Position numbers and translations under genes: made by a program | Notes under the pieces: model-generated | The model's database searches: none | Told to the model about the DNA's origin: nothing | What the model saw: the letters and a program-made list of their open reading frames with translations, nothing else | Shown: positions 15,967-17,391 of the stretch, in pieces | Layout of the letters: the number at the start of each line of letters is the position of its first letter | How positions within the stretch are numbered: position 1 is the stretch's first letter | DNA from: Candidatus Enterousia sp. | GTDB lineage: Bacteria; Pseudomonadota; Alphaproteobacteria; Rs-D84 | Direction of reading: 5' to 3' | Assembly (NCBI GenBank): GCA_045593065.1 | Contig: JAZNVZ010000003.1 | Location: 14,248-78,247 of the forward strand | DNA length: 64,000 nucleotides

Positions 15967-16372
15967 CATGAAATCCGCAGAACTCTACACACACACACAC
16001 ACACACACACACACAAATAGTCCTTGCCGGACTAATATGTTCAATATTTAATTTTGGCGCATACGCCGATGCCCCCCAATCTATACCAGATGATGTAACT
16101 GCGCCACAATCTGTTTATGATACAGACAGTATTCAATACAAAGAAAAACTTGTTCAAGAATTACGTGATGAAATCACCCAAATAGATTCAGAAATGTTGC
16201 GCTGTAAAAAGGCCAAGAAAGGTTGGGTTGCGGCGACCATTATTGGTGGCGCGGGTGTTTTGGCAACAGGCACTGCGGCGATTGTTCAAGCCAACAAGTT
16301 GAAAAAAACGGGTAATAGCACAGATAATAAAACTGCGCCAAAATCCACAGACACAACGGACGAGAAACAATG
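15967..16372 (+). CDS. phase-variable small exported coiled-coil/TM protein; the ATG is in the -1 frame relative to the long ORF because of the (AC)14 tract (phase OFF as sequenced)
   Basis: ATG at 15967 reads MKSAELY(TH)n and then stops at about 16048. The +1 frame is open from 15971 to a TGA at about 16370, with no alternative start codon before codon 75. That frame encodes ...QIVLAGLICSIFNFGAYADAPQ...LRCKKAKKGWVAATIIGGAGVLATGTAAIVQANKLKK.... The stop overlaps the ATG of the next gene. Confidence 0.55.
15986..16013 (+). repeat. (AC)14 dinucleotide microsatellite inside the 5' coding region of the downstream gene
   Basis: The sequence is tac(ac)13aaa, an uninterrupted 28-nt AC tract. Confidence 0.95.
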
Positions 16373-16750
16373 AAAAAGGTAATAATTTTATCTTTGCTGA
16401 TTTTGCCGTGCATTGCGCGCGGGGATGACGATGCGCGTATACAAATGTTGGATGCGGAAATTGCGCGCCTGACGGCGGAACGCGATGAAAAATACGCGGC
16501 GTTGGAACAATGCGAGAAAACAACCCATGGATTTAAAATAGCGGGCATAGGCACCTTGGTTGCGACAGGTGTCGGTGTGTACGGCAATGTAAAATTGGCT
16601 CAGAAAATAAAAAGTGGTGGCAGTTCCAGCGGCGGCAAAGGGACTGTATTAAAAGATACGCGTAGTAGAGAAGAGATGGTTGTCAGTTCCTGTGAGTTAG
16701 TGTGTGACACGACTAATCTTGAAAAGTGTGCAGAATGTCTGGAGAATTAG
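16370..16750 (+). CDS. small exported coiled-coil/TM protein, paralog of the phase-variable gene
   Basis: Signal peptide MKKVIILSLLILPCIA, coiled-coil segment IQMLDAEIARLTAERDEKYAALEQCEK, TM segment IAGIGTLVATGVGVYGNV, then KLAQKIK. This domain order matches the upstream gene. Confidence 0.6.
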   Translation: MKKVIILSLLILPCIARGDDDARIQMLDAEIARLTAERDEKYAALEQCEKTTHGFKIAGIGTLVATGVGVYGNVKLAQKIKSGGSSSGGKGTVLKDTRSREEMVVSSCELVCDTTNLEKCAECLEN

Positions 16751-16779
16751 TAAACAACGAAACAAAAAAGGAGAAAAAA

Positions 16780-17391
16780 ATGAAAAAAATATCAAAAATC
16801 GTTTTGGCATCATTGATTGGTGCCACAGCTTGCAATCTTGCAAACGCATCAAGTATCAACCCAGAAAAATTAAGAAGCAAGTGTATTAGTAATGAGAAAA
16901 CTCGCTGGGTTGAAAAAACGCAGACTTGTGTTCCAGTTTGGCCTTGTTCATCGAAAGATGAAGGAATTAAAAGGGGGTATTGTATAGGTCATGTTATCAA
17001 CATAAATAGCATAGCCAATGCTGAAAAAATAATAGACGAATATACCCGCTCGCAAGGATTTGGGGATGCTGTTGGTATAGAACGTTTGAATACTGATCAG
17101 GTTGGCGATGGTTCTTCGGTTGTCGCATTAGGGGTAAGAACGTCAGATGGATCATATTTTGGTGTTGCTGCAAATATTGAACCAACGTGGACTGTTGGGT
17201 CGCCAGCTTTCAAGGGAAGTGCTATACGAGAGGCGCTGTGGGCGTATGGTGCTATTGATTCTGATACGCTTGACGATAAATCAATTAGCTATGCAAGGTG
17301 TGCCGATGCGCGTCTGTTAGCGGGAGAGTTGTGTGGCGATGAATTACAGATGTCGTACGATGAATCAACTCACAAGTGTACTATTAAGTAA
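16780..17391 (+). CDS. secreted Cys-rich hypothetical protein (about 204 aa)
   Basis: RBS aaggag and signal peptide MKKISKIVLASLIGATACNLANA. The mature protein has about 10 Cys residues. Confidence 0.6.
   Translation: MKKISKIVLASLIGATACNLANASSINPEKLRSKCISNEKTRWVEKTQTCVPVWPCSSKDEGIKRGYCIGHVININSIANAEKIIDEYTRSQGFGDAVGIERLNTDQVGDGSSVVALGVRTSDGSYFGVAANIEPTWTVGSPAFKGSAIREALWAYGAIDSDTLDDKSISYARCADARLLAGELCGDELQMSYDESTHKCTIK

What the first reader, a model, noticed from the sequence alone, without database searches (positions are those of the whole stretch)
15967..17391. (AC)14 contingency locus: phase-variable exported coiled-coil/TM protein, co-operonic with a paralog and a Cys-rich secreted protein
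An uninterrupted (AC)14 tract begins 6 codons after an ATG with good context. As sequenced, the ATG frame terminates after 27 codons. The +1 frame is open for about 133 codons. It encodes a signal-anchor (IVLAGLICSIFNFGAYA), a coiled coil with Cys, a C-terminal TM helix and a basic tail, and it has no internal start codon for its first 75 codons. Loss of one AC unit or gain of two would fuse the ATG to this ORF. That makes it a classic slipped-strand ON/OFF switch that is currently OFF, and the repeat would then encode a (Thr-His)n run. The ORF stop overlaps the ATG of a paralog (16370-16750) with the same signal, coiled-coil, TM and KLxxKxK layout. A 204-aa secreted Cys-rich protein follows. 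Dinucleotide-repeat phase variation within the coding region of an envelope protein in a small, low-GC alphaproteobacterium-like genome is unusual, and the paralog family itself is not one I recognise.
Basis: partly seen in the sequence, partly recalled or inferred. Interest (0 to 1): 0.75.

Follow-up and report, generated by a model that had tools for sequence, protein, structure and literature searches.

The report
Phase-variable (AC)n switch on envelope operon
An uninterrupted (AC)14 run just after the start codon of a small exported membrane protein works as a slippage-driven ON/OFF switch, currently OFF, and the same conserved leader-plus-(AC)n unit heads many unrelated exported proteins in this group of tiny-genome gut alphaproteobacteria (Candidatus Enterousia, order Rs-D84).

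Summary
(AC)14 lies at 15987-16014, 19 nt after an ATG at 15968. The ATG frame stops after 27 codons and the next frame is open for 133 codons. Orthologues of ORF1 in related Enterousia-like genomes carry (AC)n at the same place, with n from 4 to 18. Near-identical contigs differ in n (7/12/14/15; 6/8/9), and gene calls flip between full-length and truncated as the frame predicts. Some orthologues, including the syntenic Ca. E. onthequi locus, have lost the tract and are locked ON.

ORF1-ORF2-ORF3 is a conserved three-gene operon across the order. None of the three matches a known family or fold.

The locus is not a one-off. The motif GCTGAAAcCCGCAGAAAnCT-(AC)5-26-NNN-TA[AG] hit the 120-locus limit in rumen and termite-gut metagenomes, ahead of at least 15 unrelated protein clusters.

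The mechanism is a known kind (as in Neisseria opa and H. pylori oipA). The shared leader on unrelated genes, the fixed stop after the tract, and the lineage are new.

The parts
15931..15939 (+). Promoter-like extended -10 element, TGATATAAT, directly after the dnaA stop (TAA 15925-15927)
   Evidence: Read from the sequence. The same ATATGATAtAAT box lies 30-60 nt upstream of the start codon in many related leader loci. The consensus scan did not list it because there is no good -35. Its function is inferred.
15968..15970 (+). ATG start codon of the switchable gene (ORF1), preceded by a purine-rich stretch (aaggtaagagaaaaaaactc)
   Evidence: It is the only start codon upstream of the tract that is open into it.
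15970..15986 (+). Conserved 5' leader motif, GAAATCCGCAGAACTCT (family consensus GCTGAAAcCCGCAGAAAnCT)
   Evidence: There is a single copy in the window. It is conserved at the DNA level in 100 unique related loci, whichever reading frame is used.
15987..16014 (+). (AC)14 hypermutable tract. In the ON frame it encodes (Thr-His)n in the n-region of the signal peptide.
   Evidence: Orthologous tracts have n = 4-18. Related leader loci have n = 5-26.
16018..16020 (+). TAG at +4..+6 after the tract. It is the built-in stop for the OFF phase n = 1 mod 3.
   Evidence: n = 13 or 16 gives 16- or 18-aa products that end here. Of 100 unique related loci, 91 have TAA or TAG at exactly this position.
16049..16051 (+). 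TAA that ends the ATG frame as sequenced (n = 14, 27-aa product)
16017..16373 (+). Body of ORF1. It holds the h-region and AYA cleavage motif (16017-16067), a helical segment with a conserved Cys, a Gly/Ala/Thr-rich TM helix (about 16224-16286) and a Lys-rich tail. The stop is TGA 16371-16373.
   Evidence: There are 32 homologues. Invariant residues are C80, W87 and A89-A90-T91..G94..G97-V98..A100-T101-G102-T103-A104-A105-I106-Q108 (numbering of the n = 15 product). Signal peptide and topology are inferred from the sequence.
16370..16750 (+). ORF2 (126 aa), with the same layout as ORF1 plus a Cys-motif tail. Its start overlaps the ORF1 stop (ATGA).
   Evidence: 33 homologues, invariant CEK..GFKIAGI.TL.ATG; hhalign against the ORF1 family gives 95%; a low-confidence model with helices at 21-51, 60-81 and 100-125.
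16780..17391 (+). ORF3 (203 aa), a secreted Cys-rich alpha+beta protein with a strong Shine-Dalgarno sequence (aaggag)
   Evidence: a divergent family, always third in the operon, with invariant C35, W43, C50, C56, C68, C174 and C200. The AF2 model has pLDDT 88.6 and no structural relative in the PDB.
17416..17443 (.). Bidirectional intrinsic terminator that ends the operon, shared with the convergent gyrB-like gene
   Evidence: 8-bp stem, 6 GC pairs, T runs on both strands.

Best explanation
The (AC)n tract is a slipped-strand mispairing switch in the 5' coding region (signal-peptide n-region) of the first gene of a conserved three-gene envelope operon in a Candidatus Enterousia-like alphaproteobacterium (order Rs-D84).

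Gain or loss of AC units during replication moves the ATG at 15968 among three phases:
- n = 0 mod 3 (12, 15, 18): ON. A 133-137-aa precursor is made, MKSAELY(TH)nQ-IVLAGLICSIFNFGAYA|DAPQ... After signal-peptide cleavage this should give a periplasm-facing helix anchored by a C-terminal TM helix.
- n = 1 mod 3: OFF. Translation ends at the TAG that follows the tract.
- n = 2 mod 3: OFF. This is the sequenced state (n = 14) and gives a 27-aa product.

The ORF1 stop overlaps the ORF2 start (ATGA), and OFF leaves about 320 nt untranslated. The switch therefore probably also lowers ORF2 and perhaps ORF3 expression through loss of translational coupling or polarity.

The locus is one member of a lineage-wide set of loci (a phasome). 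The same leader-(AC)n-stop module heads many unrelated exported or membrane proteins, so each cell would display a stochastic subset of envelope proteins.

Shown here: tract, frames, conservation, length polymorphism, operon conservation. Inferred: slippage as the cause, signal-peptide cleavage and topology, coupling to ORF2 and ORF3, and the biological role (surface variation towards host, partner cells or phages).
For: - Frame simulation.
- Orthologous ORF1 genes carry (AC)n at the same position after the same flank: n = 14, 15, 12, 7 (L001, L002, L004/5, L007); n = 9, 11, 6, 18, 12 (L016, L017, L018, L023, L034); n = 4 (L167).
- Contigs with near-identical flanks differ in n. The L018-type has 6, 8 and 9 units with products of 120 aa (ON), 89 aa (truncated call) and 122 aa (ON), as the frame rule predicts. 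L001/L002 have 14 vs 15, L071/L139 17 vs 19, and L077/L118 22 vs 21.
- Changes are not multiples of three units, and all classes of n mod 3 are populated (32/45/43 of 120).
- 16 of 120 stretches end within 25 nt after the tract, as expected if assemblies break at a length-heterogeneous repeat.
- Among 79 loci with an ORF of at least 45 aa after the tract, 22 are ON, 7 have only a weak start and 50 are OFF. This is about the one-third expected for free phase drift.
- The ORF1 body is intact and conserved (alignment A3), so it is not a decaying pseudogene.
- The ATGA overlap with ORF2 is conserved in most loci.
- There are no inverted repeats around the promoter and no Rfam element, so no alternative switch is visible.
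- Known precedents use the same logic: CT repeats in the signal-peptide region of H. pylori oipA (PMC10564699) and CTCTT repeats in the leader-peptide region of Neisseria opa genes (PMC3745409).
Against: - There are no read-level or single-population data for the window organism itself. All length variation is between assemblies or samples of related organisms.
- The nearest relative with a tract (L124, about 79% nt identity) also has n = 14.
- The syntenic species representative (L012, Ca. E. onthequi) has no tract at all, so the switch is dispensable for the operon.
- Assembly consensus lengths of dinucleotide repeats can be affected by PCR stutter.
- ON/OFF calls depend on which start codon is real. 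In some loci two frames have candidate starts, and one apparent ON/OFF pair (P0040/P0043) turned out to be a gene-calling difference at the same n = 8.
- No evidence exists on protein expression, switching rate or mismatch-repair status.
Confidence: 0.85

Rival explanations
1. ORF1 in this genome is simply a frameshifted pseudogene, or the tract length is an assembly or consensus error in a metagenome-assembled genome. On this view the repeat has no regulatory role.
For: - The gene is out of frame as sequenced.
- The sequence comes from an uncultured-organism assembly (a single NCBI contig of 91 kb).
- Repeat lengths in short-read assemblies are error-prone.
- Several related loci have a leader and tract followed by no long ORF (16 'noORF' cases).
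Against: - The 118 codons after the tract are uninterrupted and keep all family-invariant residues.
- The tract and both flanks are conserved across species and across many gene families, including a stop at a fixed offset. Random decay does not explain this.
- Both ON and OFF states occur within the same species.
- Even if n were misassembled, that would itself indicate length heterogeneity.
Confidence: 0.07
2. The tract is maintained because the encoded (Thr-His)n or (His-Thr)n peptide has a function of its own, for example metal binding or an export signal. Frame changes would then be incidental.
For: - ON-state proteins in databases do carry (TH)n or (HT)n N-termini.
- His-rich peptides can bind metals (general knowledge).
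Against: - Different loci use the same DNA in two different frames, AETRRNL(HT)n and KPAETY(TH)n.
- n is not constrained to in-frame steps.
- Two thirds of assembled loci are out of frame.
- The repeat lies in the part of the signal peptide that is expected to be cleaved off.
- Orthologues with no repeat exist (L012, L020).
- A peptide function would not need a perfect, uninterrupted nucleotide repeat.
Confidence: 0.03
3. Expression from the n = 14 template is rescued without DNA change, by programmed ribosomal frameshifting or transcriptional slippage on the repeat. The gene would then be constitutively expressed at a low level rather than switched.
For: - Repeats can promote RNA polymerase slippage (general knowledge, mostly for A/T homopolymers).
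- The out-of-frame states are common.
Against: - No slippery heptamer or downstream stimulatory structure was seen. The only hairpins found are weak, and Rfam finds nothing.
- Transcriptional slippage is not established for AC dinucleotide runs (from memory).
- The DNA-level length differences between contigs already explain the ON and OFF states.
Confidence: 0.05

Closest known systems
Helicobacter pylori oipA (and other hop outer-membrane protein genes such as sabA, hopZ, babB): CT dinucleotide repeats in the signal-peptide coding region
   Same: - A dinucleotide repeat lies a few codons after the start, inside the signal-peptide coding region.
- Slipped-strand mispairing changes the frame and gives ON/OFF states.
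- Several envelope genes per genome carry the repeat (PMC10564699; the list of other hop genes is from memory).
   Different: - The unit is AC, not CT.
- The host is an uncultured alphaproteobacterium with a genome below 1 Mb.
- The cargo proteins are not Hop-family barrels (no Pfam hit).
- The 5' flank and a stop codon 3 nt after the tract are conserved across unrelated cargo families. To my knowledge this has not been described for hop genes.
Neisseria opa genes: CTCTT pentamer repeats in the leader-peptide coding sequence of about 11 paralogues
   Same: - The repeat lies in the leader-peptide coding sequence of each copy.
- Each locus switches independently by restoring or disrupting the frame.
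- The result is combinatorial surface variation (PMC3745409).
   Different: - The repeat is a pentamer, not a dinucleotide.
- All opa genes are homologous throughout.
- Here the shared part is only the leader, and the mature proteins fall into at least 15 unrelated clusters, including a small bitopic membrane protein and an ABC exporter.
Phasomes of small-genome host-associated bacteria, such as Campylobacter jejuni poly-G tracts, Haemophilus influenzae tetranucleotide repeats and Mycoplasma variable lipoprotein families (from memory)
   Same: - Many simple-sequence contingency loci per genome affect surface structures.
- ON/OFF states of individual loci vary between isolates.
   Different: - Those tracts generally lack a common conserved flanking leader across non-homologous genes.
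- Mycoplasma families share 5' regions but are lipoprotein paralogues, and several switch through promoter tracts or by recombination.

Membership tests
Simple-sequence-repeat (slipped-strand) translational phase-variable gene / contingency locus | A perfect, uninterrupted repeat whose unit length is not a multiple of 3, lying inside the 5' coding region and long enough to be hypermutable | tested here: met
   (AC)14 at 15987-16014 with 100% match, starting 19 nt after the ATG.
Simple-sequence-repeat (slipped-strand) translational phase-variable gene / contingency locus | A change in unit number toggles between a full-length conserved ORF and early termination | tested here: met
   In-silico series n = 8-21: full-length product at n = 9, 12, 15, 18 and 21; products of 14-31 aa otherwise.
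Simple-sequence-repeat (slipped-strand) translational phase-variable gene / contingency locus | Tract length is polymorphic among closely related strains or populations while the flanks stay the same | tested here: met
   Met for orthologues and relatives: L001-type 7/12/14/15, L018-type 6/8/9, and three same-flank pairs. It could not be tested for the window organism itself because no second assembly or reads are available.
Simple-sequence-repeat (slipped-strand) translational phase-variable gene / contingency locus | Measured high-frequency reversible switching and ON/OFF protein expression | not testable with these tools
   This needs reads, culture, reporter assays or proteomics.
H. pylori Hop/OipA-type CT-repeat outer-membrane proteins | Hop-family outer-membrane beta-barrel with a CT repeat in the signal sequence | tested here: not met
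   No Pfam or NCBIfam hit for ORF1. ORF1 is a 118-aa single-TM protein and the unit is AC. The resemblance is in mechanism only.
Neisseria Opa family | Opa eight-stranded barrel with CTCTT repeats in the leader | tested here: not met
   No family hit. The repeat unit and protein architecture both differ.
Rs-D84 'leader-(AC)n' gene set (defined here, not a published family) | 5' flank matching GCTGAAAcCCGCAGAAAnCT, directly followed by (AC)n, then NNN-TA[AG], then a hydrophobic signal-peptide core | tested here: met
   Window 15970-16020 reads GAAATCCGCAGAACTCT-(AC)14-AAA-TAG, followed by IVLAGLICSIFNFGAYA.
Conserved ORF1-ORF2-ORF3 envelope operon of order Rs-D84 (defined here) | An ORF1-family gene whose stop overlaps an ORF2-family gene, followed by an ORF3-family Cys-rich secreted protein | tested here: met
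   The same three families occur in the same order in about 26 loci from Enterousia and Rs-D84 MAGs.

The most novel reading that the evidence does not exclude
The leader-(AC)n-TA[AG] unit may be a portable, lineage-specific translational switch cassette.

- It is a short DNA module that can be read in two frames and is closed in the third by a conserved TGA.
- It carries a built-in stop for one OFF phase.
- It would have been spread by recombination onto at least 15 unrelated exported or membrane protein families and across divergent Rs-D84 lineages, from rumen and animal or human gut to termite gut.
- Its 5' flank would be conserved for a DNA- or RNA-level reason, such as setting slippage or initiation behaviour or serving as a recombination handle, rather than for the peptide it encodes.

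In these regulator-poor genomes of less than 1 Mb, which are putatively partner-dependent, it would be the main way of diversifying the cell surface.
Probability: 0.35. Interest if true: 0.8.

Novelty: new variant of a known kind. Interest (0 to 1): 0.62.

Why it matters
Candidatus Enterousia and the order Rs-D84 are uncultured gut alphaproteobacteria with genomes under 1 Mb. They have no respiration and few biosynthetic pathways, and are suspected to live off other cells (PMC12306168). Nothing is known about how they interact with hosts or partners.

A shared hypermutable leader on dozens of exported proteins points directly to the surface repertoire that is under fluctuating selection from host immunity, partner attachment or phages. 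It gives a simple sequence handle (the leader motif) for finding that repertoire in any metagenome. It also allows read-level measurement of ON/OFF population structure in vivo without cultivation.

There is a technical consequence too. Assemblies break at these tracts, and gene callers truncate or mis-start these genes. This gene set is therefore systematically mis-annotated in MAG catalogues.

Tried and rejected
- **Protein family searches.** Pfam, NCBIfam and PHROGs scans of ORF1-3 gave only sub-threshold noise. PDB sequence and profile searches for all three families found nothing credible.
- **ORF2 model.** The monomer model has low confidence (pLDDT 58) and was used only for helix positions.
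- **RNA families.** Rfam found only chance hits at the terminator hairpin.
- **Invertible promoter.** No inverted repeats flank the promoter or leader, so this idea was rejected.
- **Phage origin.** The leader pattern has 0 hits in IMG/VR viral contigs.
- **Source contig.** The look-up by exact ORF2 product found nothing on record.
- **ORF3 homologues.** The word-indexed search found only the protein itself. Homologues came from phmmer against ORFs of the fetched loci and from the exhaustive representative search.
- **A false ON/OFF pair.** P0040 and P0043 looked like an ON/OFF pair but come from the same n = 8 tract with different start calls, so they are not counted as polymorphism.
- **Pairwise paralogy.** BLASTP of ORF1 against ORF2 was not significant. 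Only the profile comparison supports it.
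Full report
**1. The observation**

The window (41.6% GC) has an uninterrupted (AC)14 at 15987-16014. It is the only dinucleotide run longer than four units in 64 kb, and there is no homopolymer longer than nine.

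An ATG at 15968 lies 19 nt upstream of the tract, 41 nt downstream of the dnaA stop and 29 nt after a TGATATAAT box. As sequenced, this ATG frame reads MKSAELY(TH)4TNSPCRTNMFNI and stops at 16049-16051, giving 27 aa. The neighbouring frame is open from 15972 to the TGA at 16371-16373 and has no ATG, GTG or TTG before 16194.

I rebuilt the gene with n = 8-21 units. The ATG is fused to the long ORF only at n = 9, 12, 15, 18 and 21. At n = 1 mod 3 translation ends at the TAG three bases after the tract. At n = 2 mod 3, the present state, it ends 27-31 codons in. Everything else in the description holds. The ATGA overlap with the next gene at 16370 is there, and a Cys-rich secreted protein of 203 aa occupies 16780-17391.

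**2. The organism**

The ORF2 family alignment was used to scan species-representative genomes. It hits only MAGs labelled Candidatus Enterousia or unclassified Alphaproteobacteria, Proteobacteria and 'Rickettsiales', plus two labelled Muribaculaceae/Bacteroidales, from rumen, faeces and termite gut.

L012 (Ca. Enterousia onthequi, JAGHVJ010000010.1) is syntenic with the window. dnaA is 77% and gyrB-dnaJ 85% identical at the nucleotide level, with the same three-gene cassette between them.

The literature describes Enterousia (order Rs-D84) as uncultured gut bacteria with genomes of about 0.75-1.0 Mb. They lack respiration and most biosynthesis and are presumed to depend on other cells (PMC12306168). 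That paper does not mention phase variation or repeats. The other 15 papers that mention Enterousia were seen only as titles and abstract beginnings, and none concerned it.

**3. The operon**

ORF2 has 33 homologues in the large protein collection and ORF1 has 32. ORF3 finds only itself in the word-indexed search. However, phmmer against the ORFs of the fetched loci shows a divergent ORF3 homologue in third position in about 26 loci (alignment A2). The exhaustive representative search finds 72 clusters, nearly all about 200-240 aa.

The ORF1-ORF2-ORF3 order is conserved in different neighbourhoods. In the window and in L012 it lies between dnaA and gyrB. In L001-L005 it lies between a BamB-like gene and dksA/thioredoxin/sufS. 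In most loci the ORF1 stop overlaps the ORF2 start.

ORF1 and ORF2 share a layout:
- a signal peptide;
- a helix of about 30-45 residues with one conserved Cys;
- a K-x-x-K-G-[WF] motif;
- a Gly/Ala/Thr-rich TM helix;
- a basic tail, which in ORF2 carries a C-x3-C...C-x-C motif.

Pairwise they are not significantly similar (E = 2.7). The family profiles do align (hhalign 95.3%, E = 2.3e-8 over 57 columns). Distant paralogy is therefore plausible but rests partly on signal-peptide and coiled-coil columns.

**4. Evidence that the tract is a switch**

*(a) Conservation of position with variable length.* ORF1 orthologues carry (AC)n directly after the same flank (..CCGCAGAAnnCT):

| Locus | n |
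|---|---|
| L001 | 14 |
| L002 | 15 |
| L004, L005 | 12 |
| L007 | 7 |
| L016 | 9 |
| L017 | 11 |
| L018 | 6 |
| L023 | 18 |
| L034 | 12 |
| L167 | 4 |
| L124 | 14 |

L124 is the nearest tract-bearing relative. It also lies right after dnaA and shares about 79% nucleotide identity with the window over 346 nt.

*(b) Polymorphism with constant flanks.*
- The L001-type contigs from different human-associated samples show 7, 12, 14 and 15 units.
- The L018-type shows 6, 8 and 9 units. The called products are 120 aa, 89 aa (5'-truncated) and 122 aa, exactly as the rule 'ON at n = 0 mod 3' predicts.
- Among ten groups of contigs with identical 60-nt and 40-nt flanks, three differ in n: 14/15, 17/19 and 22/21.

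*(c) Step size.* The steps are not multiples of three units, and all residue classes of n are populated.

*(d) Assembly breaks.* Assemblies often break at the tract. L006 and L008 begin with AACCT(AC)12, and 16 of 120 metagenome stretches end within 25 nt after the tract.

*(e) The ORF is intact.* The ORF behind the tract keeps all family-invariant residues, so it is not a decaying pseudogene.

*(f) Evolutionary locking.*
- In L012 the gene starts ATGCGAAAATATCGCAGAAATATTTTT. The leader is recognisable, the tract is gone and the frame is fixed ON.
- L013/L014 retain ..CATAGAACTCTACACGCAAGC, an (AC)2 relic.
- L020 and others have an ordinary signal peptide.

The pattern as a whole shows repeated gain, expansion and decay of a switch on one conserved gene.

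*(g) No alternative switch.* No inverted repeats, no Rfam element and no phage association were found.

**5. The wider finding**

I searched JGI metagenome contigs for CCGCAGAANNCT(AC)5. The tracts have 5-26 units, mostly 11-17.

Only five of these stretches precede ORF1-like genes. The rest precede other proteins whose hydrophobic signal-peptide core begins right after the tract. With the first 35 residues removed, the 76 products of at least 90 aa fall into 15 BLAST clusters.
- The largest cluster is held together by shared C-terminal Cys-rich modules.
- Pfam recognises almost nothing among seven representatives. One has a sub-threshold Listeria-Bacteroides repeat match, and one (L083) is a complete ABC exporter.

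Across 100 unique loci the consensus is GCTGAAAcCCGCAGAAAnCT-(AC)n-A-nn-TA[AG]. Ninety-one have TAA or TAG at exactly +4..+6 after the tract, although the search pattern did not constrain that side.

Different genes read the same 5' flank in two frames..AETRRNL(HT)n or ..KPAE[TSL]Y(TH)n. The third frame holds a conserved TGA. The conservation is therefore at the nucleotide level, not the peptide level.

Of 79 loci with an ORF of at least 45 aa after the tract, 22 are in frame with a credible start, 7 only with a weak one, and 50 are out of frame. This is about what free drift among three phases gives.

In several species the slot directly downstream of dnaA holds a leader-bearing gene, but with different cargo (window and L124: ORF1; L103, L140, L076, L087: other families). 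This suggests exchange of cargo behind a common leader. That last point is inference.

**6. Mechanism**

*Shown:* the tract, its frames, the fixed stop, conservation, length polymorphism, and the ON/OFF correspondence in relatives.

*Inferred from established knowledge of simple-sequence contingency loci:* replication slippage adds or removes AC units, each change moves the ATG among three phases, and only one phase yields the precursor.

*Further inference:*
- The (TH)n stretch lies in the n-region and is removed with the signal peptide at AYA|DA.
- In the OFF state, loss of coupling at the ATGA junction and about 320 nt of untranslated mRNA lower ORF2 and perhaps ORF3 expression.
- The biological purpose is stochastic variation of envelope proteins.

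**7. Comparison with known systems**

The logic is that of H. pylori oipA, which has CT repeats in the signal-peptide region (PMC10564699), and of Neisseria opa, which has CTCTT repeats in the leader-peptide region of each of about 11 copies (PMC3745409).

The window locus is not a member of those protein families. It differs in several ways:
- the repeat unit is AC;
- the host lineage is different;
- one short leader module is shared by non-homologous cargo genes;
- the leader is used in two frames;
- a stop codon sits at a fixed offset after the tract.

I found no report of phase variation in Enterousia or Rs-D84. That is absence in the searchable library only.

**8. Verdict**

The mechanism is a known kind. 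The modular leader and the lineage make it a new variant. The function of the three proteins is unknown. Interest is moderate to high, mainly because the leader motif gives direct access to the variable surface repertoire of an enigmatic group of reduced-genome gut bacteria.

Noticed in passing
window 28396-28665 and 33713-33811; L167 14-183, L168 1-214, L169 1-113, L016 3437-3499, L023 3295-3502: A dispersed intergenic element of about 101 nt. It forms 2.7 tandem copies between dnaN and efp, with another copy near 33.7 kb. In the closest ORF1 relatives (L167-L169), and in L016 and L023, it lies directly upstream of the ORF1-3 cassette promoter. Its nature is unknown; it could be REP- or MITE-like, or regulatory.
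   Followed up: partly
window 41866-43353 (+) and 43490-44743 (-): Two convergent ORFs (495 and 417 aa) with no Pfam hit contain long in-frame tandem repeats: 162-nt units at 42768-43070 and 54-nt units at 43915-44026. They may be repeat-variable surface proteins.
   Followed up: no
L103, L140, L076, L087, L124 (dnaA-proximal ends) compared with window 14662-16020: In several related species the gene directly downstream of dnaA carries the leader-(AC)n module, but the cargo protein belongs to different families. This suggests cargo replacement behind a common leader.
   Followed up: partly
L083 (QMCE01001862.1) 6078-6099 and downstream: The same leader with (AC)7 precedes a complete ABC exporter (ABC_membrane plus ABC_tran, at least 598 aa). 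The gene is out of frame in the assembly. The module is therefore not restricted to Sec signal peptides.
   Followed up: partly
C-termini of leader-linked proteins, e.g. L050, L065, L070, L091, L098, L152: Many otherwise different leader-linked proteins end in a common Cys-rich module of about 70 aa (..G.YCWC...SWVF....C...C...C.....FR.A.F). Others end in ..VGMYD.V...F.TN.GTG.F.AGP or ..YNN.KYYL.LD....YPIH......KLKV.VGNTTYNAHD. These are unassigned; they might be anchoring or secretion modules.
   Followed up: no
[not shown]
   Followed up: partly
L040-L043, L045 (MAG RUG13568), L015/L021, L019/L022, L030/L031: Some genomes hold two to five ORF2-family copies, several without an ORF1-like gene upstream. 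In L022 the ORF1 position is occupied by a truncated leader, (AC)10 and a '..LLSLKQIGTICF' signal-peptide fragment.
   Followed up: no
L162, L170-L172, L106, L129 upstream of the leader: Several leaders carry a short direct repeat that contains the -35-like hexamer (cttgacaaatcttgacaaa) between the start codon and the conserved flank. It adds alternative TTG starts in a second frame. It is unclear whether two of the three phases can be ON in those genes.
   Followed up: no
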